A stretch of 43,386 nucleotides of DNA from a virus. Each line of letters starts with the position of its first letter. Position 1 is the stretch's first letter. The DNA is taken from IMG/VR virus record IMGVR_UViG_3300045988_088603, positions 1 to 43,386 of that record; one strand, 5' to 3'. Positions 113 through 42,211 of the stretch are shown here, in pieces. The notes beneath the pieces are model-generated. The model saw nothing but the letters and a program-made list of their open reading frames with translations. It was not told the origin of the DNA and made no database searches. A program made the position numbers and the translations under genes.

Positions 113-1354
113 ATGGCACTGATCAAATGTCCAGAATGCGATCTGCAGGTAAGCGATCACGCAATTGCTTGCCCTCACTGCGGATATCCTATTAATACTA
201 AAGTGGCCAAACAACAACAATCAAAATCTCGTAGAAAAAAACGTCTCCCTAACGGTTTCGGCCAGATCACTAAAATAAAAAACAGCAATCTCCGAAACCC
301 ATACAGAGCTATGGTTACTGTAGGAAAAGACTTCTATGGCAAGCCGATCTGTAAACCTCTAAAACCAAATGCATACTTCAAAACTTACAATGATGCTTAT
401 GCTGCATTGGTTGAATACAATAAAAATCCTTATGATTTAGATGATGATCTGACAGTAGAACAACTTTATGAAAAATGGACCGATGAATACTTCAAGACTT
501 TAACCAATCCATCCAGCATACGAACTATCAAGTCTGCTTGGAACTACTGCTCTGCTATTTACAACATGCGTGCTAAAGATTTAAGACCCCGGCACATTAA
601 AGGCTGCATGGAAGATGGTACATATGTTGTTGATGGTGTAGAGAAAAAAGCATCTTCAAGTACAAAAACAAAAATAAAATCTCTATTTAATCTTATGCTT
701 GACTATGCAAACGAAAATGATCTTGTAGAAAAGAACTATGCTCGAACATTTAAGTTATCTGATGATATTATTAAAGATGTCGAGGAAGAAAAGAAAGATC
801 ATATTGACTTCACAGATGAAGAAATGCAAAAATTGTGGAATAACTTATATGATGTAGACTATGTAGATGTGCTACTAATCCAGTGTTATAGCGGATGGCG
901 CCCACAGGAATTAGGCTTGTTAAAGATGGAGAATGTTGATTTAGAAAATTGGTTTATTACTGGCGGTATGAAAACTGATGCTGGAAAAGATCGTGTGGTT
1001 CCAGTCCATCCAAAGATTCGCAGCTTAATAAAACATCGTTACCAGGAAGCTTTATCTCTTGGAAGCAAATACTTGATTAATTGTACTGATACTAAAACCC
1101 ATCGAAGTAGCTTAAAACTCACATATGATAAATATCGACATAGAGTTGAAAAGATTGTTAACAAGCTGGAATTAAATCCAGAACATCGTGCTCACGATGG
1201 ACGTATCCAATTTGCTACAATGGCAAAAGATGCAAAAGTAAATGAATATGCTCTAAAACGTATCATAGGACATAAAATCGACGACCTCACAGAAAAGACC
1301 TATACAAAGAGAAAAAGAGAATGGCTTATGGAAGAGATTCTAAAGATAAAATAG
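113..1354 (+). CDS. int: Tyrosine-type site-specific integrase with N-terminal zinc ribbon
   Basis: 413-aa ORF. The C-terminal catalytic pattern is R in SGWRPQEL, HxxR in AHDGR, GH in IIGHK and Y in EKTYTKR. The N-terminus has CPEC...CPHC. It is co-oriented with the lysogeny operon across the junction. Confidence 0.9.
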   Translation: MALIKCPECDLQVSDHAIACPHCGYPINTKVAKQQQSKSRRKKRLPNGFGQITKIKNSNLRNPYRAMVTVGKDFYGKPICKPLKPNAYFKTYNDAYAALVEYNKNPYDLDDDLTVEQLYEKWTDEYFKTLTNPSSIRTIKSAWNYCSAIYNMRAKDLRPRHIKGCMEDGTYVVDGVEKKASSSTKTKIKSLFNLMLDYANENDLVEKNYARTFKLSDDIIKDVEEEKKDHIDFTDEEMQKLWNNLYDVDYVDVLLIQCYSGWRPQELGLLKMENVDLENWFITGGMKTDAGKDRVVPVHPKIRSLIKHRYQEALSLGSKYLINCTDTKTHRSSLKLTYDKYRHRVEKIVNKLELNPEHRAHDGRIQFATMAKDAKVNEYALKRIIGHKIDDLTEKTYTKRKREWLMEEILKIK

Positions 1355-19685: not shown

Positions 19686-21356
19686 TCACCTCCACGGTAA
19701 TTCTGGATACAATTCTTTTATTTCTTTAATTATACTTCTTAATTCATCTGCAGTCAATGTATTACGGCGATACTTATGTTTTAACTCCTGAGCTCTGCAA
19801 ACGCATTCTGACCACTGTGATCCACCAATATCATATCGATGATGTGTTATTTCATGAATCAATGTTTCAGCGGTTTTTTCAATTGTTTTTGTGTCTGATG
19901 CATAAATACGAATATTATCTTTCCATTGCTTTCCGTATAACTTATCTGGATTATCAACATGATATGCTAATTCTATATTAATTTCTGGATGATCAACAAT
20001 ATATTTCATTGTCTCTTTTCCAATGTCGGACTTATTCAAATTTCTCTGAACGCTCCAATGATTGATCAGATCCTTTTGTCCTAAATTAAAATCAGTTAAT
20101 CGTTCTGTAAATTTAGATTCATTGACTTTTGTTTTTCTATTACTCCATACAGCTTTCTGTGCAACACTACGACCAAATCCAACGATATCTCCTGCTTTGT
20201 TCTTCACCGCATGGATCTGAACTCTGGCAGACTCATATCGCCTTCCTGTTTCTTTGCAGAAAGCTTTTAATACTGCTTCCTGTTTCTTTAATCTCACAGA
20301 TTCTTCATTAAACCGATTCTGTAAAGTATTTTTTAAGGTATCATCTTTCGCTTCACTGATCGCTGAATTATATCCAGCAAGTTTCCTCTTTGTCTCTCTG
20401 ATCTGTCGTTCATGACCTCTCTGCATCTGGCTCGCTTCATACTCTGTAAATTGCTTTCCGTTGTATTCTACGTTCTTTGCAGAATAATCATCTAGTATCT
20501 CTTGCGTATATGCTGGTGTCGATATTCCTGGGAAGAATGCGTGGAAGTTATGACGGCAATTCCAACCACATAAACCTGGTCCTGTACCATATCCTGTTGC
20601 TTCATAGAAGTTTTCATATTTTGGATCAGTCCCAGATAAACAAAAGACCTTCCCTTGCCATACGGCATGTTCCGGTCTTGCTCCTTCATGTGCAGTTGTT
20701 TCAACATAATCACAGTTCTGATCTTTTGCGTATTGCAAGTTCATTTCTGCTGCAGTCTGGTTTACTCCGGTAAGTACAGCTCTTCTTACCGCGACATCTA
20801 ATTTATCGACATGCTGTGACGGATATAAGACTTCTGTTCCCCGCACTGCTGCCTCTCTGATCGCATCTGCAATTGCTTTGTCATAACTGAATGCTCCAGA
20901 ACTAACTTTCATCTGTGCTCTATTACAAGCTTGTATGTAAGCTGACTGTGATCTTACTGCGGTTGTCATCGTGAGATTATCAAGTTCCTGGCATGTTTTT
21001 CTGATATTTGCTTGCAAGATTCTCTGCATTCCATTGGACTGATTTAACTTAATATCTTCTTTGCCTGCCTGTTTGTAATATACAGCCTCGTTCTTTAAGT
21101 TCCTAACACCTGCTTCTTCATACATTCTCTGAACTTCATGCTTTTGATATCCAGATACCTGACTTACTCGCTTGATCGTATCTTTATAAACAAGACCTGC
21201 ATTCTGTAAAACTTCAGCCTGATGTTTCGTTGACTCTGATACATTTCCCATCTTTACGATTCTTTTTGCCATATCAGATATGATCGCTATTGTCAGAGTG
21301 TCAATGATGCCAAGTAACTGATCGGAGAACTTTTCCAAATACTTCGGATCAAGCAT
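19686..21356 (-). CDS. Minor head protein, MuF / SPP1 gp7 family, with C-terminal HExxH metallopeptidase-like extension
   Basis: 556 aa. The MuF core motif is GPGLCGWNCRHNFHAFFPG. An extra region of about 170 aa ends with TLIHEITHHRYD (HExxH). The gene follows the portal gene. Confidence 0.8.
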   Translation of the reverse strand: MLDPKYLEKFSDQLLGIIDTLTIAIISDMAKRIVKMGNVSESTKHQAEVLQNAGLVYKDTIKRVSQVSGYQKHEVQRMYEEAGVRNLKNEAVYYKQAGKEDIKLNQSNGMQRILQANIRKTCQELDNLTMTTAVRSQSAYIQACNRAQMKVSSGAFSYDKAIADAIREAAVRGTEVLYPSQHVDKLDVAVRRAVLTGVNQTAAEMNLQYAKDQNCDYVETTAHEGARPEHAVWQGKVFCLSGTDPKYENFYEATGYGTGPGLCGWNCRHNFHAFFPGISTPAYTQEILDDYSAKNVEYNGKQFTEYEASQMQRGHERQIRETKRKLAGYNSAISEAKDDTLKNTLQNRFNEESVRLKKQEAVLKAFCKETGRRYESARVQIHAVKNKAGDIVGFGRSVAQKAVWSNRKTKVNESKFTERLTDFNLGQKDLINHWSVQRNLNKSDIGKETMKYIVDHPEINIELAYHVDNPDKLYGKQWKDNIRIYASDTKTIEKTAETLIHEITHHRYDIGGSQWSECVCRAQELKHKYRRNTLTADELRSIIKEIKELYPELPWR

Positions 21357-21366
21357 CTGTGATCAC

Positions 21367-22758
21367 CTACTCTTCCTGGATGGTAAAACGATCATCCTGT
21401 GCCGGCATCATTTTCAATGCTTCTTCCTCAGATACGCCATACTTGGCCGCAATGTATATTTCTTTTCGGATCAGTCCTGCAGTTGCATCCTGCTGCATAC
21501 TCTGCAGTTCCTGTTCTTTATCGATCACGATCGAATCGTCCCAGTCAAAACTGATCTCGTATTTCTTGCCACCATTCAGGTTCGCAAGTTGTGCGATCAC
21601 ATCCATTGCATAGACTAATTGTTCTAATGCTTTTTGCAATGCTTTTTGAATATCAGATACTGTACTATATGATCGCTGTTTGCTTGCCTTAATTTCTTCT
21701 GCAGTCTTATCGACTGTGTTTGGATCACTTAAAGTTCCATAGGCGAGACCTACGTTAAACTCAATTCTTCTAAGGATCGTATTGAATCCATTGATAAGAC
21801 TTTCGTCACGGATCGGTGGTGCAAACACTTTGTACTGGTCACGATCCTCGTCAAAGTCCATCATCCGAAAGAGTCTTTCTTTTCCTTTCGGAAGGTCAAA
21901 TTCTCCATTTTCCTTTCGCTTAAATAATCCAATATCTGCATCGATTGCCAGTTCGGATCCCTCATATTCCCATAAGATTCTCGTCCATTGATAATCAGCT
22001 TCTTTGATATCATCGATTGCTCTGGAATATACAGATACTCCCAACGGAGATGAATCATCGACATTATTTGCATTTGGTATCTTGAAGTATGCGAATAACG
22101 GCTTTTTCACGTTTAAGATCGTGACAGCTTCTTCCAGATTTTCCCACTCTGGTACAGCACTAAGCGGTACTTCTTTTCCTAATACCTCAACATTATCAAG
22201 ATCCTGTCTTACAAAAGCCTTATTCATAATGTGATATGTAGTGTTCTCATCATGCTGATGGTATTCCAATCTTGTATATACCTGTTTCCCGATCGTTACA
22301 GTTTCCATAAAGACCGCTGCGATAACTTCCCCTCTGGAATTAAATTTCGTTGGGAAAAAGTGATCAGCTTGGACCATGTCAACTTCAATGTGTCCGTCAG
22401 AAACATAAGGCTTCATTGCAAGTCCGCCTTTTGCACAGGCATATTCCGTATACGTTCGTATGTTATCAGTCACGGTTTGGTATTCATCGTTAAGAAACTT
22501 GTTCCCTGTAATCTCTGTTTTTAATTCCAGTGTAACAAGCCTTGCAAATTCTCCAGCAATAGCTGCAGGTAATCCGCAAAGTTTTAGTTCTTTTCTTTTC
22601 CACGGCGGTTGATTTTTATACATCTTCGACCAGAGATCAATTTCTCTTGCCATCTTGTCTGATACGGCAACATCAACTCCGATCGCATCCCTGATATTTT
22701 CTTTTCCAAGCATTTTTCTTATCACCTGCCTTATTCGCTCAATAATTTCTTTTATCAT
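21367..22758 (-). CDS. Portal protein (SPP1 gp6-like)
   Basis: 463 aa, between terL and the MuF gene. Confidence 0.85.
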   Translation of the reverse strand: MIKEIIERIRQVIRKMLGKENIRDAIGVDVAVSDKMAREIDLWSKMYKNQPPWKRKELKLCGLPAAIAGEFARLVTLELKTEITGNKFLNDEYQTVTDNIRTYTEYACAKGGLAMKPYVSDGHIEVDMVQADHFFPTKFNSRGEVIAAVFMETVTIGKQVYTRLEYHQHDENTTYHIMNKAFVRQDLDNVEVLGKEVPLSAVPEWENLEEAVTILNVKKPLFAYFKIPNANNVDDSSPLGVSVYSRAIDDIKEADYQWTRILWEYEGSELAIDADIGLFKRKENGEFDLPKGKERLFRMMDFDEDRDQYKVFAPPIRDESLINGFNTILRRIEFNVGLAYGTLSDPNTVDKTAEEIKASKQRSYSTVSDIQKALQKALEQLVYAMDVIAQLANLNGGKKYEISFDWDDSIVIDKEQELQSMQQDATAGLIRKEIYIAAKYGVSEEEALKMMPAQDDRFTIQEE

Positions 22759-22762
22759 TTAA

Positions 22763-24028
22763 TCAACTCCATTTTCGTTCACGTCTTACGATCGTGTAAG
22801 CAAAATATCTCACTGCATCCATGCAATGATCATGCTGCTTCACTGGTTTATCTTCTCCACGTTCCAATGCCTTATCATCCCAGATATAAGAGCCGAACTC
22901 TTTGATTGTTTCTTTACAACATTCAGAGAACAGTAATACACCTAGATTTAACAGATTTCCAACAAATCGAATACCATCAAGTACATCATTCTTTGCTTTC
23001 TTAACCTTAAATCCTCGTTTCTTAAGCTCTGCGATAAAGGATGCTGCTGCCGGATCGACAATGATCGATTCAACATTGATTCCTTCCAGGAACTCTTCCA
23101 TGTCATCTGCATACTCTCCGTCTGTCTTCTGCGTAGTCTCATCTCGGCCAGAATAGTAATATTCCTTTGTAGCAACCCACTGTCCCTTGTGATTCTTTTC
23201 CCACAGAAGATATACTGTCGCATTCTGTGTACCATAATCGACACTGACGTATTTACTGCCGGTTGTTGACTGCTTTTCTGATGTGACATGCTTTTCTATA
23301 TTAAACATGTCGTAAATAATTCCCTCAGCTACGGCCCACAGACCTAAGATATAACGCTTATAAAACACTCCGGTATACATTGCTCGATATCGTGCTTTAA
23401 TTCGCTCAGATAAGCTTAAATTGTCGTCCATCGTAAAGTGTAGATAGACAAGTTTCTTTTCATCTGCACGATCAATCCAGTTAGTTTTAAACCAGTGATA
23501 CGGCCCATCTGGGTTACAGTTGAACCAGTATTTAGATCCATCAACAGAACAACGTCCTGTTGCCTGGTCAACAAAAGATTCAGGCATCAATGCAACTTCA
23601 TCAAAAAAGACTCCTGCAAGTGTGATACCCTGTATCAAATCCTGTGATCGCTCATCCTTACCGCCAAAGATGTAAAAAAAATTCTCTTTGCCACCTCTTC
23701 GGATAACAACTAAATTATCAGCTCTATGATCTTCAACGTGATACCCTCGACTCTTAAGCATAAGCTTTAACCAAAAGAGTACGTTTCTCCGGAAAGAACC
23801 GATCGTCTTACCACACATACCAAAATTCTGTCCATTGAACGTTTCCATTGCCCACATTGCAAAGGACAAGCACATAGAAACAGTTTTTCCCGATCGGATA
23901 GCCCCATCGGCTATGATTCCATCTTGATCATATACGGGTGAATTGGGCAGCCACCAGGTAAGTATCTTTTTCTGCTTCTTAGAGAACGGCCGAAACTTAA
24001 AGACAGCTTTCTTTATTCTTCTTCCCAT
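22763..24028 (-). CDS. terL: Terminase large subunit
   Basis: 421 aa with Walker A (GAIRSGKT) and Walker B-like (VFFDEV) motifs and a C-terminal nuclease region. It overlaps terS. Confidence 0.9.
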   Translation of the reverse strand: MGRRIKKAVFKFRPFSKKQKKILTWWLPNSPVYDQDGIIADGAIRSGKTVSMCLSFAMWAMETFNGQNFGMCGKTIGSFRRNVLFWLKLMLKSRGYHVEDHRADNLVVIRRGGKENFFYIFGGKDERSQDLIQGITLAGVFFDEVALMPESFVDQATGRCSVDGSKYWFNCNPDGPYHWFKTNWIDRADEKKLVYLHFTMDDNLSLSERIKARYRAMYTGVFYKRYILGLWAVAEGIIYDMFNIEKHVTSEKQSTTGSKYVSVDYGTQNATVYLLWEKNHKGQWVATKEYYYSGRDETTQKTDGEYADDMEEFLEGINVESIIVDPAAASFIAELKKRGFKVKKAKNDVLDGIRFVGNLLNLGVLLFSECCKETIKEFGSYIWDDKALERGEDKPVKQHDHCMDAVRYFAYTIVRRERKWS

Positions 24029-24891
24029 ACATCTGCCACCTCACCTTTTAAGGCTTCGATGAATCCATCATCTTCTGTCTCTTCTTCGGATGTTCCGGAC
24101 ATGATCGCTGTCTTAGCTCTGATCTGCTCAATCTTAGCTTTCTGTTCAGCTGTAGCAATGTCCATATGGTCTGCAAGCCATTGCAAAGCTTTCATCTTAT
24201 CAACCAGCTTAATACTCGCTCCGTCTTTTCCTTGCTTCACTTCCGTGATCAGTGTTCCATCAACATCTTCAGATTGTTTGAATTTCACAGTATTGACTTC
24301 TTTTTCGAGAACTTCTTTTTCTCCAGTTTCTTTGTTTTCTACCATTACTGGACCAAAAGCACCCATAACTTGAATATTTTCTCGCCCAAACGATACATAA
24401 TCTGTTACATCCGCAAATGCAATGTCCATAAACTTTTGAAAGATATCTTCCTGCTTTAGCAATTCTCTGTTCATATGATTCTGCTTTAGCTGTTCAATCT
24501 CTTTTCTGATCACTTGATTCTTCATAAGCCTGCTTCCTAATACGGCAGCAGATGCATAAGTACATCCTGGATAAGCTTTCATGTAAGCTTTCGTGTAATT
24601 AAACATCCTGGATTGATACAAACAAAAAAGCTGCTGCTGATCGGTAAGTTCATCGTTGATCACGACCTGACTTACATCCTCTGCAACAGCTTCTTTTTTG
24701 TGTGCACCCTTTTTATTTTGTGTGCACCCCTTTTGGATGCATCCTGTCTTTTTGTTCCTCGACCATGCGTATCGTTTCTTCCACGATTTCACAGTGTTCA
24801 TCGAGACTCCATACTTGGCAGCAATGCCTTTATACTTCATTCCGGCCACATAATCGGATTCTGCCAATATGTAGTTTTTTTCTTCATTCAA
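24013..24891 (-). CDS. terS: Terminase small subunit (Terminase_2-like) with N-terminal HTH
   Basis: 292 aa. The HTH is GIAAKYGVSMNTVKSWKKRY. The segment QQLFCLYQSRMFNYTKAYMKAYPG is typical of small terminases. Confidence 0.8.
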   Translation of the reverse strand: MNEEKNYILAESDYVAGMKYKGIAAKYGVSMNTVKSWKKRYAWSRNKKTGCIQKGCTQNKKGAHKKEAVAEDVSQVVINDELTDQQQLFCLYQSRMFNYTKAYMKAYPGCTYASAAVLGSRLMKNQVIRKEIEQLKQNHMNRELLKQEDIFQKFMDIAFADVTDYVSFGRENIQVMGAFGPVMVENKETGEKEVLEKEVNTVKFKQSEDVDGTLITEVKQGKDGASIKLVDKMKALQWLADHMDIATAEQKAKIEQIRAKTAIMSGTSEEETEDDGFIEALKGEVADVWEEE

Positions 24892-24921
24892 ACATTACCA
24901 CCTTCTTTCTTATTTCTTAAA

Positions 24922-24995
24922 TGGACCTCCAGGGACTCGAACCCCGGACCGATCGGTTATGAGCCGACTGCTCTGACCAGCTGAGCTAGAGGTCC
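24922..24995 (-). tRNA. tRNA with CAU anticodon (Met, or Ile2 if lysidine-modified)
   Basis: A 74-nt cloverleaf was folded by hand: acceptor GGACCTC/GAGGTCC, D-arm GCTC-AGCTGGTCA-GAGC, anticodon arm GTCGG-CTCATAA-CCGAT, T-arm CGGGG-TTCGAGT-CCCTG, discriminator A. No CCA is encoded. Confidence 0.85.
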
Positions 24996-25017
24996 TTATG
25001 CCGGATTACTCCGGCTT

Positions 25018-25533
25018 TTATTCTACAAACATCCAATCTTCTGCTAACATATCTGCCTGGCTTGCTAACCATCCCATTTGTACGCCAGACGTGCCGATAA
25101 ACGCAATTGCTTTATTTCCAATATCATTGTGATCACAATTAACGATCGTTCCATCTGCTGCCTTAAATGAAATACATGTTGCAAGCTGAATATACTGGTT
25201 CTTTCCGTTCCAACCTATTCTTTTAACTTTAAGGCCACGTTTCAAATATTTAATAGCATCCCCAAAGCTAAATGTAGCCACTCCACCAAGCACAGGACAG
25301 TTCTCTGGATTTGCCACAATCCATTCATTGGATAAGATGTTAGAAAGTGTGTACTCAACTCTCTGTGTCTCTCTAATATCAAGTAGATCTCCCTGTCCTT
25401 TGTCAGTGTCCTTCGGTCTGCACTGCATCATAACCGTTTCTTTCTCTGCATCCCAGTACCAGTATCCGCCCCAGGATGGAAGTTTTACCCTATGACCTTT
25501 TTTCATTAATTCAAATGCATCTTTAAAATTCAT
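25018..25533 (-). CDS. Tandem DUF2829 (Tad2-like) protein
   Basis: The second half, FSFGDAIKYLKRGLKVKRIGWNGKNQYIQL...GWLASQADMLAEDWMFVE, is a textbook DUF2829 signature. The first half (MNFKDAFELMKKGHRVKLPSWGGYWYW...LSNILSNEWIVA) is a diverged copy. The start at 25533 is preferred over 25596 because a terminator-like hairpin occupies 25561-25590. Confidence 0.75.
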   Translation of the reverse strand: MNFKDAFELMKKGHRVKLPSWGGYWYWDAEKETVMMQCRPKDTDKGQGDLLDIRETQRVEYTLSNILSNEWIVANPENCPVLGGVATFSFGDAIKYLKRGLKVKRIGWNGKNQYIQLATCISFKAADGTIVNCDHNDIGNKAIAFIGTSGVQMGWLASQADMLAEDWMFVE

Positions 25534-25560
25534 ATCTCTTTCCTTTCTCAATTTAGACAT

Positions 25561-25590
25561 AAAAAGACCCGGGGTCCGAAGATCACCCGA
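25561..25590 (-). terminator. GC-rich imperfect hairpin with UUCG loop plus T-run after the 4-TM gene
   Basis: The minus strand reads CGGGTGATC-TTCG-GACCCCG (two bulges) followed by GGTCTTTTT. Confidence 0.45.
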
Positions 25591-25604
25591 GTTCATTCTA
25601 TCTG

Positions 25605-26156
25605 TTATTTTATACTTTTATTCAATTCATCCATTACTTGTTTCTGATCTTCAGACATATCTGAATTTATAGTTTTTCCTTCTTTAATCCCGCTATCATC
25701 AGAAAAAATCAATTCTAGCATATATTTAATGCTTCTATATGTCAGAATCATAAAAAGAAGGAAAAAATAAATCCATAAATAAAAACTATACGTTCTTACT
25801 TGTTTTTGAAAACTTTCATTAAAATACATAAAAACTGTTACGGTTGCACTAAAAAGACCCACCACCACTGTTCCTTTTATATATTTTTGAAACAGTTTAT
25901 TAGTATCTTTTTGAAATACACGCATAACAAATTTAGATTCTTTCTTCATCCCCATGATTACTGGCATTATTGCACCGAAGAACCCAACAATTAAACCTGT
26001 CATGGTTAGTACACTATCTAAAGCATCATATAAATGTTTATCGTTTATATAATTTATTTTACTTCCCCACAACAGCACAACTACAATTAAGCTTAAAACA
26101 TATGGATAACCTCTTTCTAAATAATATGCTATTGGATTCCATCTATTTTTTTTCAT
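25605..26156 (-). CDS. Four-TM membrane protein (183 aa), second gene of the accessory cassette
   Basis: Hydrophobic helices are YPYVLSLIVVVLLWG, LTMTGLIVGFFGAIMPVIMGM, GTVVVGLFSATVTVFMYF and SFYLWIYFFLLFMILTY. The gene is AT-rich and lies 12 nt after the upstream gene. Confidence 0.8.
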   Translation of the reverse strand: MKKNRWNPIAYYLERGYPYVLSLIVVVLLWGSKINYINDKHLYDALDSVLTMTGLIVGFFGAIMPVIMGMKKESKFVMRVFQKDTNKLFQKYIKGTVVVGLFSATVTVFMYFNESFQKQVRTYSFYLWIYFFLLFMILTYRSIKYMLELIFSDDSGIKEGKTINSDMSEDQKQVMDELNKSIK

Positions 26157-26168
26157 TTAACCATCACC

Positions 26169-27080
26169 CTATTCCATTGATAGAAATTTATGTAATTCCT
26201 CTCTTTTTTCAACAAAACAGCGTACCATTCTTTTATATATCACGTCCGTGTCTAGGGTTTCTCGACTTTTTAAAGTAAATTCTATTTTATCGCTTGTTAC
26301 ATTATCAAATAAATCGATAACTTCAGCTGTAGTATCATCATCGTCCTTTACTGTAATTTTAGCCCCACTTACATGGTGACTGTCTTCTCTCACATCATTG
26401 ATTATATTTTGAACAGTATATCTGTCTAAAGTTTCTATGCCAGAACGACCTAAACTTATTGTCACATGTGCGCAAACTCCTCCAACATTTGCACATGACT
26501 TTATTAGTTTACCCAATGGCTTTTTGTCATCTGTATATAATTGATTTAAATTTGCAAATGAAATATCAATCTTTTTATAATAGTCCCTCTCAAAAGCTTT
26601 TTCATCAAGAACAAAACTAATAGGCGACAAAATAAATTTCTCATCCCTATTACCGTTTAAATCAGTTACAATCTCTTGGAATTTTGTAGGTGATATAGAA
26701 AATCTATTCATTTGAAACATTATTATTCCAGTTTCTCTTTCGTAAACAAAAGATACATCTTCTCCTATATACTCGTCATCATCTAAATGTAGCGGCTCTG
26801 CTTCAGTATTTTCCTTGACTTTTGATGGAATATTAGTATCTCTCATTTTCATTAATTTAACATACCATAAACCATAGTCCTTGTTTGTGATCATCTTTTC
26901 AATTCGATATTTTAATCCTGAATGCTCAATTTCTCTTGTTTTAACAATTACTCCTCGTCTATATAAATTAGCTAATAATTCACCTAAATCAAAAACTTTC
27001 GGACTTGACCATTCGCCGTTGTCTATGTAGCTTTTTCTGATCTGATAATAATTAAATTTTATTGTTCTCTTATATTCCAT
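26169..27080 (-). CDS. Soluble 303-aa protein of unknown function, first gene of the accessory cassette
   Basis: Long uninterrupted AT-rich ORF with a GGGAG SD. I recognise no catalytic motif. Confidence 0.8.
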   Translation of the reverse strand: MEYKRTIKFNYYQIRKSYIDNGEWSSPKVFDLGELLANLYRRGVIVKTREIEHSGLKYRIEKMITNKDYGLWYVKLMKMRDTNIPSKVKENTEAEPLHLDDDEYIGEDVSFVYERETGIIMFQMNRFSISPTKFQEIVTDLNGNRDEKFILSPISFVLDEKAFERDYYKKIDISFANLNQLYTDDKKPLGKLIKSCANVGGVCAHVTISLGRSGIETLDRYTVQNIINDVREDSHHVSGAKITVKDDDDTTAEVIDLFDNVTSDKIEFTLKSRETLDTDVIYKRMVRCFVEKREELHKFLSME

Positions 27081-27178
27081 TTTTATCTACTCCCGTGCGA
27101 TCATCATTTTTTTACATTTTAGCACTATTTGGTATCTTATACTACATAATTCGATAAAAAAATTAAACGCACCGTAAT

Positions 27179-27229
27179 ACAGAACATATGTTCTGTTTTT
27201 ATTATATACACATTTTTCAAGATATTCAA
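27179..27229 (-). promoter_or_regulatory. Sigma-A-type promoter plus 18-bp palindromic operator/5' hairpin for the cassette
   Basis: On the minus strand, TTGAAT (27229-27224), a 17-nt spacer and TATAAT (27206-27201) are followed by the perfect palindrome ACAGAACATATGTTCTGT (27196-27179). Confidence 0.6.
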
Positions 27230-27238
27230 TACAAATAC

Positions 27239-27266
27239 ACAAAAAGAACACCGCATTTCTGCGATG
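27239..27266 (-). terminator. Rho-independent terminator after the late-regulator gene
   Basis: On the minus strand, CATCGCA-GAAA-TGCGGTG (one G-U pair) is followed by TTCTTTTTGTG. Confidence 0.6.
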
Positions 27267-27353
27267 CTCAAAAAAAATTTGCACGGGACGATTGATTGGA
27301 CTCTATCCAATTTCCTCAAGTATAACTATAACACACTTTTTTGTTTAATTTGT

Positions 27354-27770
27354 TTAATCTTTTAGATTTTCACTAACTATTTGAGAAATTCTGCCTTTTG
27401 TATACCCCAATTGTTCTCCAACTTCCTGTTGTGTCATGCCATTTATGTAAATGAGTTCAAAAATCTGTCTTGCATTGCTATCAGGAATCAAGCTGATAAA
27501 CTCTTCAATCTCTGTCAGAAGTTCATCCACCTGTTCCTGTCTCTTTCCGTTGATCATCATCTGCCGATAGATCACATCTGTTTGTTTCGGCTCTGACATC
27601 ACAACACTCATGTGCGTTTCGATATAGGGGAACGTGTTCATGGATCCTTTTACTTTTCCAGTAACTGTCGGAATCCTCTCTGCTCTCTCATTCAGTTTCT
27701 CCATTTTGTCTTCCAGCATCTTCTGCTCCCTCTTCAGAGATCGATACTGTCTTAGTTTTTTCTTATCCAT
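27354..27770 (-). CDS. Late-gene transcriptional activator, sigma-70 region-4-like HTH (RinA/ArpU/DUF1492-like)
   Basis: 138 aa. The C-terminus is ARQIFELIYINGMTQQEVGEQLGYTKGRISQIVSENL. The gene sits between the replication and packaging modules. Confidence 0.7.
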   Translation of the reverse strand: MDKKKLRQYRSLKREQKMLEDKMEKLNERAERIPTVTGKVKGSMNTFPYIETHMSVVMSEPKQTDVIYRQMMINGKRQEQVDELLTEIEEFISLIPDSNARQIFELIYINGMTQQEVGEQLGYTKGRISQIVSENLKD

Positions 27771-27805
27771 GCCTTGCCTCCTGTCACCTATGTTGCATCA
27801 GCATC

Positions 27806-28000
27806 CTAAACATCTCCCCAGTGTTTCACGCAATGCCTATGTACAAAACAATCTGTCCTTCTCTTTGTTCTGGACCACTCTGTCTCATCGTCCTCCGGAT
27901 CCATCGCTTCGCCGCAGACTACACAGCAGGGACGAGCCCCACCGTGTTTCTCTCTGGTCTTCTTGTATGCATTCATTGCTGTCCTGTTATTTTTGATCAT
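27806..28000 (-). CDS. Small Cys/His-rich hypothetical protein
   Basis: 64 aa with CCVVC...CFVHRHC. It is coupled by an ATGA overlap to the upstream ORF. Confidence 0.55.
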   Translation of the reverse strand: MIKNNRTAMNAYKKTREKHGGARPCCVVCGEAMDPEDDETEWSRTKRRTDCFVHRHCVKHWGDV

Positions 28001-28185
28001 TGTCTTTCTCCCCCCCCTGCATCATAGATCTCACATGAGATCACCTTATTGCCAACTCCATTATCCACAACTTCGAAATCGACATCGTATCCGACCTCAG
28101 CCAGATGATCGATGATCCCAAAGTCATTGCCATTATCCTGCGAATGAATATAGACCCTCGCAAGTTTCTGTCTGATCTGTGCCAT
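27997..28185 (-). CDS. Hypothetical protein
   Basis: 62-aa ORF in the operon, with coding-like composition. Confidence 0.5.
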   Translation of the reverse strand: MAQIRQKLARVYIHSQDNGNDFGIIDHLAEVGYDVDFEVVDNGVGNKVISCEIYDAGGGERQ

Positions 28186-28209
28186 AATTAATTCACTCCT
28201 TAACTTTCC

Positions 28210-28593
28210 TTAACGATTTTCTCTGATCGTAAGCTCAATGCCAGTCTCATCTCTGGTTGCCTCCAGGATGTCTGCCCATGTAACTAATCCGTCATTCATA
28301 CATTCTGTTTTTAAGTTAAATCTGGCTTTGAACTGATCCAGCCGTTTCTTGCCAAAACCAAACTCATCTCTTAGCACCATGATGCTCATAGCAAGAACGG
28401 TATCCAGGATCTGCTCTTTGATCTTCTGTGCCGCTTTATCCATTTCTCTATGATCGACAGGAACCTTGATCCCTGTAACTCTCCGGCGTTTCATTTCTCT
28501 CTCTAAGGCTTCTGCTCCGCCTTCTCTCACAATGCGTAAAGCAAGTTCCAATCCTTCGGTCCTGCCTTCCATCTTTGCATCAATCTTTCCCAT
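28210..28593 (-). CDS. Hypothetical protein (replication-module associated)
   Basis: 127-aa ORF overlapping the SNF2 stop. Confidence 0.65.
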   Translation of the reverse strand: MGKIDAKMEGRTEGLELALRIVREGGAEALEREMKRRRVTGIKVPVDHREMDKAAQKIKEQILDTVLAMSIMVLRDEFGFGKKRLDQFKARFNLKTECMNDGLVTWADILEATRDETGIELTIRENR

Positions 28594-29968
28594 CGCTCTC
28601 TCCTTTCACGCTCTTGATCCTTGCCTTTAAGGCATCCAAAAATGAATCCTGTGTAACTTCTTTTGCTTCCAGTGCATCCATGACGTTCTCATCATATCCG
28701 CCGGCAGTAACCAGATGATGGATCACAACATTCTCTTTCTGGCCCTGCCGGTACAGTCTGGCATTTGCCTGCTGATATAGCTCTAATGACCAGTTAAGTC
28801 CAAACCAGACAATGATGTGCCCACCTGCCTGAAGGTTTAATCCGTATGCTGCACTTGCCGGATGTGCAAGCAGGATATCCATCTGCCCATTGTTCCAGGC
28901 TGTGATGCTGTCCGGATTCTTTAACTCTCCGATCCGAAGCCTGCTCTTTTTCAAAGCCTTCTGGATCCGTGCCTTGTCATGCTTAAAGTTATAAAACACT
29001 AAAATTCCTTTTCCAGCATTTGCATCGATGATCTCTTTTAAGGCTTCGATTTTCTCATCATGCACCTCATGGTATATACCGTCTGCATCATAGACAGCTC
29101 CGTTGCAAAGCTGCAAAAGTTTATTACTTAAAGCCGCTGCACTTGTAACGTCAATAGTCTCTCCATCGATATCCGCAATCATCGTCTTCTCCAATTCTTC
29201 ATACTGCTTCTTTGCTTTATCCGGAAGTTTGATATGACGGACATTATCGATCCGTTCTGGTAATTCCAGATAATCCTCTGCTTTCATGGAGATACAGATA
29301 TCTTTGATCCGTTCATTGATCTCTTCGTCTGCCCATGTCCTCGGGTTGTACTCATAGATCACATTTCCGTTTCTTGCTCCTGGTGTGAAGTAATTATCAC
29401 GGTATCCGGTTAGTGTCTTTCCTAGCCGTTCTCCTTCATCCAGGAGATAGATCTGTGCCCACAGGTCTTCCAGTCCGTTCGGAGTCGGTGTTCCTGTAAG
29501 CCCTACGATCCGGTGGATGTGACTCCTGACACTTTTTAATTTTCGGAATCGTTTTGCTTTGTTGGACTTAAAGCTCGACAACTCATCAATGATCACCATG
29601 TCAAACGGCCAGTCATTTTTGTAATAATCAACCAACCACGAGACATTGTCTCTTGATAACACCCAGATATCGCCGGGTGTGTTGATCGCTCTGATCCGCT
29701 GTTTGATACTTCCAAGGACTGGGATCACCCGAAGCATCTTTAAGTGATCCCATTTCTGTGATTCTCTTGTCCATGTATCTTCTGCAACTTTCTTCGGCGC
29801 GATGACAAGAACTTTCCGGACTGCAAACCGATTGAATCTCAGATCATTGACTGCTGTCAGTGTGATCACTGTCTTTCCAAGTCCCATGTCAAGAAACAAT
29901 CCTAAGACCGGATCCGTGATCATGCGGTTAATGCAGTATCGCTGATAATTGTGTGGTACAAATCTCAT
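28580..29968 (-). CDS. SNF2-family helicase/ATPase
   Basis: 462 aa. Motif I is LDMGLGKT, motif II is VIIDELSSF, and the C-terminal helicase motifs are QANARLYRQGQ. Confidence 0.9.
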   Translation of the reverse strand: MRFVPHNYQRYCINRMITDPVLGLFLDMGLGKTVITLTAVNDLRFNRFAVRKVLVIAPKKVAEDTWTRESQKWDHLKMLRVIPVLGSIKQRIRAINTPGDIWVLSRDNVSWLVDYYKNDWPFDMVIIDELSSFKSNKAKRFRKLKSVRSHIHRIVGLTGTPTPNGLEDLWAQIYLLDEGERLGKTLTGYRDNYFTPGARNGNVIYEYNPRTWADEEINERIKDICISMKAEDYLELPERIDNVRHIKLPDKAKKQYEELEKTMIADIDGETIDVTSAAALSNKLLQLCNGAVYDADGIYHEVHDEKIEALKEIIDANAGKGILVFYNFKHDKARIQKALKKSRLRIGELKNPDSITAWNNGQMDILLAHPASAAYGLNLQAGGHIIVWFGLNWSLELYQQANARLYRQGQKENVVIHHLVTAGGYDENVMDALEAKEVTQDSFLDALKARIKSVKGESDGKD

Positions 29969-30300
29969 ATCATGCCTCTCTGTTCTAACTCTGCGATCTT
30001 GTCCAAGGCCTTACCTGGATTCCATGCTTCGATCTCCCAGATCACTCGGTCAATATCTTTTTTATTATCAAGAACGGTTGCATAACATCCTGTCGCCAAG
30101 ATCTTACGGATCTGAACTTTCTGAAGCGGTGTTGTTTTTTCTCCTGGTCGTTTCAATTCTACGAATCCGGATTTTCCACCCTGAAGGACTACAACCCTGT
30201 CTGGTACTCCAGCATTGCCCGGGGACACAAACTTATACGCCATACCGCCGACCTCTTTTACTTCATCCCTGAACTTGGATTCTATACTGCTTTCTCTCAT
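29965..30300 (-). CDS. VRR-NUC domain nuclease
   Basis: 111 aa. GVPDRVVVLQGGKSGFVELKRPGEKTTPLQ matches the PD...ExK VRR-NUC pattern. Confidence 0.8.
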   Translation of the reverse strand: MRESSIESKFRDEVKEVGGMAYKFVSPGNAGVPDRVVVLQGGKSGFVELKRPGEKTTPLQKVQIRKILATGCYATVLDNKKDIDRVIWEIEAWNPGKALDKIAELEQRGMI

Positions 30301-30316
30301 ATCATTCTCCTTTGCT

Positions 30317-30561
30317 GTTAACGTGTTTACATATTGCCCTTATATATATACGCGTGTATGTATGCACATGGGGTACGTTATACTATTACCCTTTATATTT
30401 TATTTTTAAAGAACTTAATGTTAACATTGTTAACAATAGCTACAGCCATTGAATTTACTGGGTTTTTGGTGTTAACTTTGAATGTTTACACAATGTTATC
30501 TTTGTTAACAGCCATATTTTTTGAATGTTAACAACTGTTTGTCTTTTTACCCTTTGTTAAC
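30317..30561. repeat. Iteron cluster: seven TGTTAAC(A) copies plus a 30-bp alternating pyrimidine-purine tract (putative replication origin or operator array)
   Basis: GTTAAC occurs at 30317, 30420, 30429, 30471, 30504, 30527 and 30556, each preceded by T. GTTTAC variants lie near 30324 and 30484. Positions 30341-30370 alternate Py-Pu perfectly. Confidence 0.6.
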
Positions 30562-39895: not shown

Positions 39896-40336
39896 ATGAT
39901 GTGGATGACAGTTGGTGAACGAATACAACTACTAAGAAAGAAAACTGGCATGAGTCAGATAGACTTTGCAACAAAAATAAATGTATCTAAGCAGACTTTG
40001 TATAAATATGAAAATAATCTTATTACTAATATACCGTCTGATAAAATTGAAGCTGTTGCAGATTTGTGTCATGTATCCCCTGCTTATTTGATGGGATGGG
40101 AGGAACCAGAACCTCAATCTTCTACCATACTAAATAAGAAAGATGAAAAAGATATCGCAAAACGATTAGAACAAACTCTTGATCAACTAGAATCCGATCA
40201 AGATGGACTGATGTTCTCCGGAGAACCTTTAGATGATGAAACAAGAGAATTATTAAAAGCGAGTCTCCAAAACAGTATAACCATCGCAAAAATAAATGCT
40301 AAGCAAAAATTCACACCAAAGAAATACAGAAAATAA
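39896..40336 (+). CDS. cI-like repressor (XRE-family HTH, ImmR-like)
   Basis: The HTH is GMSQIDFATKINVSKQTLYKYENN. The probable true start is the ATG at 39905, 9 nt after AAGGAG. An extended -10 (TGTGATAAT) lies at 39866-39874 and the half-site AAGTTAC at 39878-39884. Confidence 0.85.
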   Translation: MMWMTVGERIQLLRKKTGMSQIDFATKINVSKQTLYKYENNLITNIPSDKIEAVADLCHVSPAYLMGWEEPEPQSSTILNKKDEKDIAKRLEQTLDQLESDQDGLMFSGEPLDDETRELLKASLQNSITIAKINAKQKFTPKKYRK

Positions 40337-40349
40337 AGGAAGTGATTCA

Positions 40350-40772
40350 TTGGATATTCGTAAAAAAACAAACTCACTAAAGAAAAGATATGGTACGAAT
40401 AATCCTTTTGACATTGCTAAGTATTTAGGGATAAAGGTTATATTTGAACCATTGGGATCCATTAGTGGATACTACAATAAACAGCTTCGTATGAAGCAAA
40501 TACATATAAATCATGATCTTTCTGATCACGATCAGCTATTTACATGTGCACATGAATTAGGTCATGCAATTATGCATCCTGATGCTAATACTCCATTTTT
40601 AAGAAAACGAACTGGACTTCTTGTAAGTAAAATGGAAATCGAAGCAGATAAGTTTGCAACTGAGCTTCTAATTAATGATGAAATTTTTCTTGAGTTTCAA
40701 GAATTTACTACAGATCAAATCGCACGTGCACTTGGATATAATGAGGAACTGATAAAGTTAAGATTGAAATAA
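40350..40772 (+). CDS. immA: ImmA/IrrE-family zinc metallopeptidase (anti-repressor protease)
   Basis: HExxH lies in CAHELGHAIMH. The proposed TTG start at 40350 follows AAAGGAAGTGA and the cI stop. The ORF-track ATG at 40296 would overlap cI by 41 nt. Confidence 0.8.
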   Translation: MDIRKKTNSLKKRYGTNNPFDIAKYLGIKVIFEPLGSISGYYNKQLRMKQIHINHDLSDHDQLFTCAHELGHAIMHPDANTPFLRKRTGLLVSKMEIEADKFATELLINDEIFLEFQEFTTDQIARALGYNEELIKLRLK

Positions 40773-42150: not shown

Positions 42151-42211
42151 CACCATTTCGGTGATCTCGCCCAAATGGTCCATAAAATATATAACGAAAG
42201 GATGTGAATAT

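What the first reader, a model, noticed from the sequence alone, without database searches (positions are those of the whole stretch)
25018..25596. Tandem DUF2829 (Tad2-like) protein: candidate immune-signal sponge next to the putative defence cassette
The C-terminal half carries the DUF2829 hallmark (KRGLKVKRIGWNGKNQYIQL ... GWLASQADMLAEDWMFVE). The N-terminal half is a second, diverged copy (KKGHRVKLPSWGGYWYW ... LSNILSNEWIVA). DUF2829 is the family of Tad2, the phage protein reported to sequester the Thoeris gcADPR signal, with some members also binding cyclic oligonucleotides. A single-chain tandem duplication would differ from the single-domain homo-oligomeric Tad2. It lies directly downstream of the candidate defence cassette and upstream of a tRNA and terminase, forming a compact defence/counter-defence island.
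Basis: partly seen in the sequence, partly recalled or inferred. Interest (0 to 1): 0.7.

Follow-up and report, generated by a model that had tools for sequence, protein, structure and literature searches.

The report
Two-domain Tad2-family phage sponge candidate
A temperate gut-Clostridia phage encodes one protein that joins two different members of the Tad2 family, phage proteins that soak up bacterial immune signals; the layout is common in gut prophages but I found no report of it, and its binding activity is untested.

Summary
The ORF at 25018..25596 (-) encodes two Tad2-like (PF11195) domains. The real start is probably the ATG at 25533, giving 171 aa.

- **C-terminal half:** a canonical Tad2 domain (69.7 bits; PDB hits to SPO1, Hgm, Spt and Mo Tad2). 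It keeps 7 of the 10 SPO1 gcADPR-contact residues. Its Thr-to-Ala change also occurs in Tad2_82, which is tabulated as a type I Thoeris inhibitor.
- **N-terminal half:** a diverged Tad2-like domain (23.9 bits alone; profile-profile probability 96%; best fold match SPO1 Tad2, TM 0.58). Its pocket positions are changed in a fixed way (Asn to Gly, Trp to Tyr, Asp to Asn).
- **Origin:** both halves have stand-alone relatives, so this is a fusion of two Tad2 lineages, not a recent duplication.
- **Distribution:** the layout is not unique. It matches PHROG 1048, occurs in 74 Clostridia species genomes and in at least 589 IMG/VR contigs.
- **Selection:** both halves are under purifying selection. The insertion region of the C domain is swapped between near-identical phages.
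- **Neighbours:** the upstream DUF6731 + membrane-protein pair sits in a variable slot and is not a fixed partner.

Sponge function is inferred, not shown. I rate it a new variant of a known kind.

The parts
25018..25533 (-). Most likely coding sequence of the two-domain Tad2-family protein (171 aa plus stop at 25018..25020)
   Evidence: ORF list. Homologues start at the equivalent Met. PF11195 87.2 bits in two stretches. phrog_1048 matches end to end, E 9e-58.
25534..25596 (-). Upstream in-frame extension of the mechanical ORF, probably not translated. It holds a hairpin plus T-run (25565..25580) and the ribosome-binding site AGGAAAGAG (25536..25544).
   Evidence: Sequence. Terminator-like site. 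No conservation of this stretch in homologues from other genomes.
25312..25533 (-). N-type Tad2-like domain (residues 1-74). Hallmarks are K17-L-P-x-W21-G-G23-Y24-W25, R54, Y61-T62 and N65.
   Evidence: PF11195 E 6e-5, 23.9 bits alone. hhalign against the C-half profile 96%. AF2 pLDDT 90; Foldseek best hit SPO1 Tad2, TM 0.58. The listed residues are at least 95% conserved in 103 unique tandem proteins.
25273..25311 (-). Inter-domain linker (residues 75-87, NPENCPVLGGVAT), partly conserved (N78, L82, G83-G84)
   Evidence: Alignments A1 and A4. AF2 secondary structure shows only a short helical turn here.
25021..25272 (-). Canonical Tad2 domain (residues 88-171) with pocket motifs G-W108-N109-G and G-W155-L-A-S158-Q-A160-D161
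   Evidence: PF11195 69.7 bits. PDB sequence hits to SPO1 Tad2 (E 4e-11), HgmTad2/AcrIIA7, SptTad2 and ModTad2. Pocket residue lists from the papers.
25078..25197 (-). Variable insertion region of the C domain (residues 113-152). It is exchanged as a cassette between closely related phages.
   Evidence: L096, L099/L100/L104 and L113/L167 have near-identical N domains and different insertions. Lowest conservation in the protein, 0.57 against 0.76 for the C core. The equivalent region forms the cyclic-dinucleotide site in HgmTad2 and SptTad2.
25605..26156 (-). Upstream neighbour: 183-aa protein with four hydrophobic segments (context, not part of the protein)
   Evidence: ORF. Only a weak PADLOC hit, PDC-M18B, E 5e-4. 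No Pfam hit above cut-off.
26169..27080 (-). Upstream neighbour: DUF6731 protein (context). It occupies a slot that holds other accessory genes in sister phages.
   Evidence: PF20505 190 bits. phrog_10865. No PADLOC hit. The slot holds YfbU or Abi_alpha in L004-L015.
24922..24995 (-). tRNA-Met (CAT) between the Tad2-family gene and the small terminase gene (context)
   Evidence: ARAGORN.

Best explanation
The gene encodes a single-chain, two-module member of the Tad2 family of phage 'sponge' proteins, carried as an accessory gene by a temperate phage of gut Clostridia.

The C-terminal module is a canonical Tad2 domain. After oligomerisation it is expected to form the inter-subunit pocket that sequesters TIR-made cyclic ADP-ribose signals (3'cADPR / 1''-3' gcADPR) of Thoeris. 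That would stop the signal from switching on the Thoeris effector.

The N-terminal module belongs to a separate, strongly conserved Tad2-like lineage ('WGGYW' type) that also exists as a roughly 70-85 aa stand-alone phage protein. Its pocket positions are remodelled in a fixed way: W kept, Asn to Gly, Trp to Tyr, Asp to Asn, plus an invariant Arg54. It most likely either binds a different nucleotide signal or acts as the constant partner and scaffold of the assembly.

Shown here: domain identity, fold, residue conservation, purifying selection, distribution and modular exchange.

Inferred: oligomeric state, ligands and anti-defence activity.
For: - **C domain identity.** It hits PF11195 at 69.7 bits and solved Tad2 structures by sequence (SPO1 E 4e-11; Hgm, Spt and Mo Tad2). 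The whole model's top 24 PDB fold hits are all Tad2.
- **C domain pocket.** SPO1 contact residues W25, N26, I63, T65, W73, S76 and D79 align to identical W108, N109, I146, T148, W155, S158 and D161 (alignment). Only T78 to A160, D67 to G150 and H71 (deleted) differ. W108, W155 and D161 are at least 95% conserved in 103 tandem proteins.
- **The T-to-A change is tolerated.** The same GWLASQAD motif is in Tad2_82, tabulated y/y/y against type I Thoeris in Table S2 of bioRxiv 10.1101/2025.08.24.671296. Tad2_82 is 45% identical to the window's C half.
- **N domain.** Pfam E 6e-5; hhalign 96%; best fold hit SPO1 Tad2. Its conserved residues sit in the same elements that line the Tad2 pocket.
- **Selection.** dN/dS is about 0.05-0.25 for both halves at unsaturated dS.
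- **Precedent for fused sponges.** Acb4-Tad2 of phage Pm86 and Tad2-Sequestin fusions are reported, and Pm86 Acb4-Tad2 blocks both Thoeris and CBASS (PMC12265669). Pm86 ORF47 lies next to the lysis genes, like the tandem gene in phage phiRg507T2_3.
- **Accessory-gene behaviour.** The gene occupies different positions in different phages.
- **Arms-race-like pattern.** The insertion is exchanged between near-identical phages.
Against: - No binding or infection data exist for any tandem member. No 'WGGYW'-type sequence was found in the supplementary files of the 84-sponge survey that are held as text.
- In Tad2 each gcADPR pocket uses W, N, W and D from two protomers. If the N and C domains pair with each other, every pocket would be half non-canonical and might not bind gcADPR.
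- The oligomeric state could not be modelled.
- The N half alone is just below Pfam's cut-off, and only one Tad2 chain passes in its fold search.
- A minority of family members have a degenerate C domain (HWKED...WKETMIE in L082, L088, L137). The family's common function therefore cannot rest on the canonical pocket alone.
- The gene usually sits in late-gene regions, whereas the Tad2 authors suggest sponges act best when made early.
- Whether the hosts carry Thoeris or other TIR signalling systems was not examined.
Confidence: 0.6

Rival explanations
1. Pseudo-tetramer with hybrid pockets. Two chains assemble into a Tad2-like four-domain particle in which each ligand pocket is built from one N-type and one C-type domain. 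This gives asymmetric pockets tuned to a ligand other than gcADPR, for example His-ADPR, N7-cADPR or an unknown signal.
For: - The linker is short and partly conserved (13 residues).
- The single-chain AF2 model has pTM 0.74 with pLDDT 90, which suggests a defined relative placement of the two domains.
- Tad2 pockets are formed by two protomers.
- N-type pocket positions are changed to fixed alternatives rather than being lost at random.
- Tad2 family members are known to have diverse specificities.
Against: - Both domain types also exist alone, so each can presumably self-assemble.
- No multimer model could be made.
Confidence: 0.25
2. The N-type domain is only a structural scaffold or stabiliser. 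The protein is functionally an ordinary Tad2 gcADPR sponge with fewer sites per unit mass.
For: The N domain lacks Asn26, Ser76 and Asp79 equivalents. The C domain keeps them.
Against: - The N domain is at least as conserved as the C domain overall (0.71 against 0.67). Polar and aromatic residues R54, Y61, T62, N65, Y24 and W25 are at least 95% conserved at pocket-equivalent elements.
- It persists as a stand-alone gene in several phages.
- Some family members keep the N domain while the C-domain pocket degenerates.
Confidence: 0.2
3. The protein is not an immune-signal sponge at all. The Tad2-like fold is used here for another purpose: a morphogenesis or lysis accessory role, an anti-CRISPR-type activity as once proposed for AcrIIA7, or regulation of the adjacent prophage-encoded DUF6731 + membrane-protein cassette.
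For: - The gene commonly lies between the minor capsid/MuF and scaffold genes, or between holin and endolysin.
- PHROG 1048 has no assigned function.
- A DUF2829 protein was first reported as an anti-CRISPR.
Against: - The anti-Cas9 activity of AcrIIA7/HgmTad2 could not be reproduced.
- The pocket residues of the C domain are conserved, which a purely structural role would not require.
- The upstream cassette is replaced by unrelated genes in sister phages while the Tad2 gene stays.
- The same slots hold a validated sponge fusion in phage Pm86.
Confidence: 0.12

Closest known systems
Tad2 (Thoeris anti-defence 2; SPO1 gp34.65; Pfam PF11195/DUF2829), including HgmTad2/AcrIIA7, SptTad2 and MoTad2
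   Same: The C half has the same fold, the same GWNG and GW-x-x-SQ-x-D pocket motifs, and 7 of the 10 SPO1 gcADPR-contact residues identical. The N half has the same fold class. It is phage- or prophage-borne and moves between genome positions like an accessory gene.
   Different: This is 171 aa with two unlike Tad2-type domains in one chain, where characterised Tad2 proteins are roughly 80-105 aa single domains forming homotetramers. The N domain lacks the Asn, Ser and Asp pocket residues. No ligand or phenotype is known.
Fused phage sponges (Acb4-Tad2 of Pasteurella phage Pm86; Tad2-Sequestin/PF21825), PMC12265669
   Same: Two sponge-type modules sit in one polypeptide, each with stand-alone relatives. 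The genomic position next to late or lysis genes is similar.
   Different: The reported fusions join unrelated sponge families. Here both modules are from the Tad2 family, so they could co-assemble with each other rather than form separate oligomers. I found no report of a Tad2-Tad2 fusion.
PHROG 1048 (phage protein family, function unknown)
   Same: The window protein matches this profile end to end (positions 31-195 of 211, E 9e-58). The architecture is therefore already catalogued.
   Different: The catalogue gives no function or domain interpretation.
Tad2_82 (IMG/VR metagenomic Tad2, 80 aa) from the sponge survey, bioRxiv 10.1101/2025.08.24.671296
   Same: It has the same GWNGK and GWLASQADML(A/E)DDW motifs, including Ala in place of the adenine-contacting Thr. 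It is 45% identical to the C half and is tabulated as active against type I Thoeris.
   Different: It is a single domain with a different insertion region.

Membership tests
Tad2 / PF11195 (Thoeris anti-defence 2-like domain) | Significant match to the family profile above the curated cut-off (25 bits) | tested here: met
   Whole protein 87.2 bits. C half alone 69.7 bits. The N half alone is 23.9 bits, just below the cut-off, but is counted as a second stretch in the whole-protein match.
Tad2 / PF11195 | N-terminal half is homologous to Tad2 domains | tested here: met
   hhalign of the N-half profile against the C-half profile gives 96%, E 4.8e-9. Pfam E 6e-5. The N-profile search of PDB sequences puts Tad2 chains on top, but weakly (E 0.03-0.2).
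Tad2 / PF11195 | Tad2 fold (N-terminal helix, antiparallel sheet, short C-terminal helix) | tested here: met
   Whole model pLDDT 90.4; the top 24 PDB fold hits are all Tad2. N half alone: best hit 8smf_G, E 0.012, TM 0.58/0.60, with nothing else significant. The evidence is weaker for the N half.
Tad2 (functional gcADPR sponge) | gcADPR pocket residues (SPO1 W25, N26, W73, S76, T78, D79; Hgm W21, N22, G23, W87, S90, T92, D93) in the C domain | tested here: met
   W108, N109, G110, W155, S158 and D161 are identical. T78/T92 becomes A160, as in the active Tad2_82.
Tad2 (functional gcADPR sponge) | The same pocket residues in the N domain | tested here: not met
   W21 is kept. Asn becomes G22, Trp becomes Y61, Ser is deleted and Asp becomes N65. 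These changes are fixed in 74 of 74 genomic homologues.
Tad2 (functional gcADPR sponge) | Short single-domain protein forming a homotetramer with inter-protomer pockets | not testable with these tools
   The protein is a two-domain chain (not the usual form). No multimer prediction and no access to model coordinates was available.
Tad2 (functional gcADPR sponge) | Binds and sequesters gcADPR (or other immune nucleotides) and rescues phage from Thoeris | not testable with these tools
   This needs biochemistry and infection assays.
Fused two-module phage sponges (PMC12265669) | Two sponge-family modules in one chain, each with stand-alone homologues | tested here: met
   N type alone: CP51 gp6, RG-TP1 gp24, L166, P0223, P0265. 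C type alone: P0195, P0216.
Known anti-phage defence systems (PADLOC), for the neighbouring cassette | Profile match of DUF6731 or the membrane protein to a catalogued defence system | tested here: inconclusive
   DUF6731 has no PADLOC hit. The membrane protein has a weak hit to candidate PDC-M18B, E 5e-4. No paper mentions DUF6731.

The most novel reading that the evidence does not exclude
The 'WGGYW' N-type domain is a distinct, uncharacterised Tad2 subfamily whose remodelled, invariant pocket (W21, G23, Y24, W25, R54, Y61, T62, N65) binds an immune signal that no known sponge targets. Fusing it to an exchangeable canonical Tad2 module would give gut-Clostridia phages a two-specificity, or hybrid-pocket, sponge. 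The second module's insertion is swapped by recombination as hosts change their signalling systems.
Probability: 0.3. Interest if true: 0.75.

Novelty: new variant of a known kind. Interest (0 to 1): 0.5.

Why it matters
Sponge proteins are a main way phages defeat signalling-based immunity (Thoeris, CBASS, Pycsar). The characterised members of the known sponge families are short homo-oligomers.

A widespread hetero-tandem of two Tad2 lineages would show another route by which sponges diversify:
- asymmetric or dual pockets encoded in one chain;
- a constant module paired with a cassette-swapped module.

The N-type lineage is abundant in human-gut prophages and untested, so it is a concrete candidate for a new ligand specificity. 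It could also point to which signalling defences matter in Lachnospiraceae and related gut bacteria.

If instead it behaves as an ordinary Tad2, the result is a useful annotation for PHROG 1048 and for hundreds of gut phage genomes.

Tried and rejected
- **Recent tandem duplication: rejected.** The halves share only a 23-residue BLAST match, and each has separate stand-alone relatives.
- **192-aa (or 201-aa) reading with the upstream Met: rejected** in favour of the 171-aa form (RBS, hairpin, homologue starts).
- **Obligate functional link to the DUF6731 + membrane cassette: rejected.** Sister phages carry YfbU or Abi_alpha in that slot.
- **N half as another sponge family (for example Acb4): not supported.** Pfam lists only PF11195 even at E up to 10.
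- **Near-identical DNA in GenBank phages:** none apart from a tRNA fragment.
- **PADLOC and NCBIfam:** nothing for the Tad2-family protein.
- **BFVD fold search:** only single-domain Tad2-like matches, no full-length tandem model.
- **Literature searches for tandem, duplicated or fused Tad2:** only heterologous fusions found.
- **Searches for DUF6731:** nothing found.
- **Inter-domain packing:** I could not inspect it because model coordinates are not exposed. I had no multimer prediction.
Full report
**1. What is in the sequence**

The window is a complete-looking temperate phage or prophage. At one end it has an integrase (113..1354), an endolysin and a holin. Tail and head genes follow, then the large and small terminase subunits (22763..24891, - strand). 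Further on come a replication module (SNF2 helicase, primase-helicase, DNA polymerase) and a lysogeny module (Xre-type HTH, M78 peptidase, RhuM).

The finding's ORF, 25018..25596 (-), lies between the small terminase gene plus a tRNA-Met (24922..24995) and a pair of genes. That pair encodes a four-segment membrane protein (25605..26156) and a DUF6731 protein (26169..27080; PF20505, 190 bits).

The mechanical ORF is 192 aa, but the real start is very likely the ATG at 25533 (MNFKDAF..., 171 aa):
- Homologues from 74 other genomes begin at the equivalent Met.
- AGGAAAGAG lies 7 nt upstream.
- A hairpin with a T-run at 25565..25580 lies inside the supposed extension.

**2. Are there two Tad2-like domains?**

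Yes.
- Pfam PF11195 matches the 171-aa protein at 87.2 bits in two stretches. The C half alone gives 69.7 bits (E 3e-19). The N half alone gives 23.9 bits (E 6e-5), marginally below the 25-bit cut-off.
- A profile built from N halves aligns to a profile of C halves with hhalign probability 96% (E 4.8e-9, 63 columns).
- AlphaFold2 with a 30-sequence alignment gives pLDDT 90.4 and pTM 0.74. The secondary structure repeats: helix, strands, short helix, strand.
- Foldseek against the PDB returns 24 hits with E below 1e-3. All are Tad2 structures (SPO1 8wje/8smf/8sme/8smg, HgmTad2 8kbi/8kbj/8kbk, ModTad2 9eib/8v3e, SptTad2 8wjd). The next hit has E 0.17.
- The N half modelled alone (pLDDT 90, pTM 0.80) has SPO1 Tad2 chain 8smf_G as its only meaningful match (E 0.012, TM 0.58/0.60). 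Everything else has E of about 1 or worse.

The C half is therefore unambiguously Tad2. The N half is a diverged Tad2-like domain, supported by three independent but individually modest lines.

**3. Pocket residues**

The SPO1 Tad2 structure paper names W25, N26, W73 and D79 (from both protomers), plus T78, I63 and T65, and the water-coordinating S76, D67 and H71. The HgmTad2 paper names W21, N22, G23, W87, L88, S90, T92 and D93. W21A/N22A and S90A/T92A/D93A mutants lose binding.

| SPO1 Tad2 | C domain (HMMER alignment) | N domain (profile-profile alignment) |
|---|---|---|
| W25 | W108, identical | W21, kept |
| N26 | N109, identical | G22 |
| G after N26 | G110, identical | G23, kept |
| I63 | I146, identical | not mapped |
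| T65 | T148, identical | not mapped |
| D67 | G150 | not mapped |
| H71 | deleted | not mapped |
| W73 | W155, identical | Y61 |
| S76 | S158, identical | deleted |
| T78 | A160 | S64 (variable) |
| D79 | D161, identical | N65 |

The Thr-to-Ala change is not disqualifying. Tad2_82 is an 80-aa metagenomic Tad2 with the same GWLASQADML motif and is 45% identical to this C half. In Table S2 of the 2025 sponge survey its three type I Thoeris columns read transformed, collapse and validated.

The N-domain replacements are fixed, not random. S-W-[GAT]-G-Y occurs in 74 of 74 genomic homologues, and Y-T-x-x-N in all but one, where the motif pattern did not match (L081). K17, L18, P19, W21, G23, Y24, W25, R54, Y61, T62, N65 and W71 are at least 95% conserved in 103 unique tandem proteins.

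**4. Is it a duplication?**

No, it is a fusion of two lineages.
- The two halves share only a 23-residue BLAST match.
- The N type exists alone in Clostridium phage vB_CpeS-CP51 (gp6, 68 aa), Ruminococcus phage RG-TP1 (gp24, 75 aa, annotated DUF2829) and phiCT19406A. It also stands alone in an IMG/VR contig whose copy is 78% identical to the window's N half (L166, 74 aa), and in P0223 and P0265.
- The C type exists alone as complete proteins of about 90 aa that are 65-69% identical to the C half (P0195, P0216).
- Larger arrays also occur: a three-domain protein (P0135) and a 481-aa protein with the N-type domain followed by further DUF2829-like repeats (P0229).

**5. Distribution**

The architecture is common.
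- The protein matches PHROG 1048 (function unknown) end to end (E 9e-58).
- The 5.8-billion-protein search gave 5,490 hits.
- The 50%-clustered library gave 2,944 hits at E of 1e-3 or better, including about 20 full-length tandem clusters among the best 150.
- One scan of GTDB species genomes found 74 full-length tandem genes. They are almost all in Clostridia: Blautia, Coprococcus, Bariatricus, Merdimonas, Anaerobutyricum, Dorea, Faecalimonas, Oscillospiraceae, Clostridium intestinale and Paraclostridium bifermentans.
Of the 80 closest, 78 are tandem and 75 keep both GWNG and W-x-x-S-x-x-D in the C domain.
- Cultured phages with the full-length gene include Ruminococcus phage phiRg507T2_3 (72.5%) and Dorea phage DO134P1 (66.7%).

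**6. Selection and modularity**

For pairs with unsaturated synonymous divergence (dS 0.1-1.1), dN/dS is roughly 0.05-0.25 in both halves. One exception is 0.51, at a very low dS of 0.019. Neither half is decaying.

Conservation is highest in the N domain (mean top-residue frequency 0.71) and the C-domain core (0.76). It is lowest in the C-domain insertion, residues 113-152 (0.57).

Phages whose N domains are 90-99% identical to the window's carry at least three unrelated insertion cassettes (L096; L099/L100/L104/L110/L112; L113). L167, whose N half is about 71% identical, carries the L113-type cassette. In all of them the flanks (...KYLKRGL... and ...WLASQxDxLAEDW) stay the same. More distant genomes add further cassette types. 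A minority have a degenerate C domain (HWKED...WKETMIE in L082, L088, L137).

In HgmTad2 and SptTad2 the equivalent insertion forms the second, cyclic-dinucleotide site. In MoTad2 the same protomer interface is predicted to hold the cUMP pocket. The authors already noted that this region is highly variable. The cassette swapping seen here fits diversification of a secondary ligand site, but that is inference.

**7. Genomic context**

Exact-protein look-ups show sister phages with the same replication genes, the same sigma-70-region-4-like regulator and the same tandem gene. The slot between regulator and tandem gene differs: DUF6731 + membrane protein in the window, a YfbU-domain protein in L004-L009, and an Abi_alpha-domain protein in L010-L015. 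The terminase modules also differ.

In the window, a terminator-like hairpin (27246..27269) and a promoter-like site (TTGAAT-17-TATAAT, 27201..27229) precede the DUF6731 gene. This fits a separately transcribed accessory unit, but these are only consensus matches.

A Pfam census of flanking genes covered two genes on each side of the 74 genomic loci. In other prophages the gene typically lies in one of two places:
- between minor capsid/MuF and scaffold genes (upstream Phage_min_cap2 13 and Phage_Mu_F 9; downstream Phage_scaffold 10 and DUF4355 8);
- inside the lysis cassette (holins upstream, amidases downstream).

The experimentally validated Acb4-Tad2 fusion of phage Pm86 also sits just after holin and lysozyme. 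A late-region location therefore does not argue against sponge function.

DUF6731 itself has no PADLOC hit and no literature. Its defence role is only suggested by the slot it occupies.

**8. Mechanism**

Best-supported reading (confidence about 0.6): a two-module Tad2-family sponge.
- The C module should bind TIR-derived cyclic ADP-ribose signals as canonical Tad2 does.
- The N module either binds something else through its remodelled pocket or serves as the constant assembly partner.

Two quaternary models are open:
- **(a) Separate modules.** A tetramer of chains with separate N4 and C4 sponge modules, like the published Acb4-Tad2 fusion.
- **(b) Pseudo-tetramer.** A dimer of chains forming a Tad2-like particle with hybrid N-C pockets, or one C-C' and one N-N' pocket.

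Each Tad2 gcADPR pocket takes W, N, W and D from two protomers. Model (b) with N-C pairing would therefore give asymmetric pockets and probably a different specificity.

I could not discriminate between them.

**9. Comparison and novelty**

The protein belongs to the Tad2/PF11195 family by profile, fold and (for the C half) pocket residues. It departs from every characterised Tad2 in being a hetero-tandem.

Fused sponges are known (Acb4-Tad2, Tad2-Sequestin). I found no description of a Tad2-Tad2 fusion or of the 'WGGYW' lineage. No such sequence appears in the supplementary files of the 84-protein survey that are held as text.

It is already catalogued without function as PHROG 1048. I therefore rate it a new variant of a known kind and of moderate interest. 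It is not surprising in principle, but it offers a concrete, abundant and untested sponge lineage in human-gut phages.

Noticed in passing
window 25605-27080 (-); compare L004-L009 5439-5972 and L010-L015 5208-6014: The slot between the sigma-70-r4-like regulator and the Tad2-family gene is a variable accessory-gene hotspot in sister phages. It holds DUF6731 plus a four-segment membrane protein here, a YfbU-domain protein in one group and an Abi_alpha-domain protein in another. DUF6731 has no PADLOC hit and no literature.
   Followed up: partly
L096, L099, L100, L104, L110, L112, L113, L167 (IMG/VR), residues about 102-154 of the protein: Phages with 90-99% identical N domains carry unrelated insertion cassettes in the C-terminal Tad2 domain, with conserved flanks (L167, at about 71%, shares the L113-type cassette). 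This looks like recombinational swapping of the region that forms the second ligand site in HgmTad2 and SptTad2.
   Followed up: partly
P0229 (481 aa) and P0135 (242 aa): Larger arrays exist. P0229 has an N-type domain followed by three or four further DUF2829-like repeats. P0135 has three domains: a Tad2-like domain, then the N type, then the C type.
   Followed up: no
window 25565-25580 (-) and 25000-25015 (+): Two small GC-rich hairpins with T-runs flank the Tad2-family gene. One lies between the membrane-protein gene and the likely true start codon. The other (+ strand sense) lies between the stop codon and the tRNA-Met gene.
   Followed up: no
window 24922-24995 (-): A tRNA-Met (CAT) gene sits directly upstream of the small terminase gene. 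A 59-nt stretch of it is the only part of the 12-kb query around the gene (window 20000-32000) with near-identical DNA in GenBank phages (Vibrio phages, 88%).
   Followed up: no
window 27201-27269 (-): A terminator-like hairpin follows the regulator gene, and a good promoter-like site (TTGAAT-17-TATAAT) lies just ahead of the DUF6731 gene. The DUF6731, membrane-protein and Tad2-family genes may form their own transcription unit.
   Followed up: no
genome loci L016-L092, flanking genes; P0037: DUF6275 (PF19791) proteins turn up repeatedly next to the tandem gene: 5 upstream and 5 downstream in the census. One homologue (P0037, 197 aa) is annotated with both PF19791 and PF11195.
   Followed up: no
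window 42161-43276 (+), 39896-40772 (+), 113-1354 (+): The lysogeny end of the element carries a RhuM-family protein (341 bits), an Xre-type HTH with an M78 (ImmA/IrrE) peptidase pair, and a tyrosine integrase with an N-terminal zinc ribbon.
   Followed up: no
P0171 (78 aa): One 'short' homologue ends in VSYTHLDVYKRQ, a string that to my knowledge is an assembly or contamination artefact. Some apparently stand-alone N-type entries in protein databases are therefore truncated artefacts rather than real short genes.
   Followed up: no
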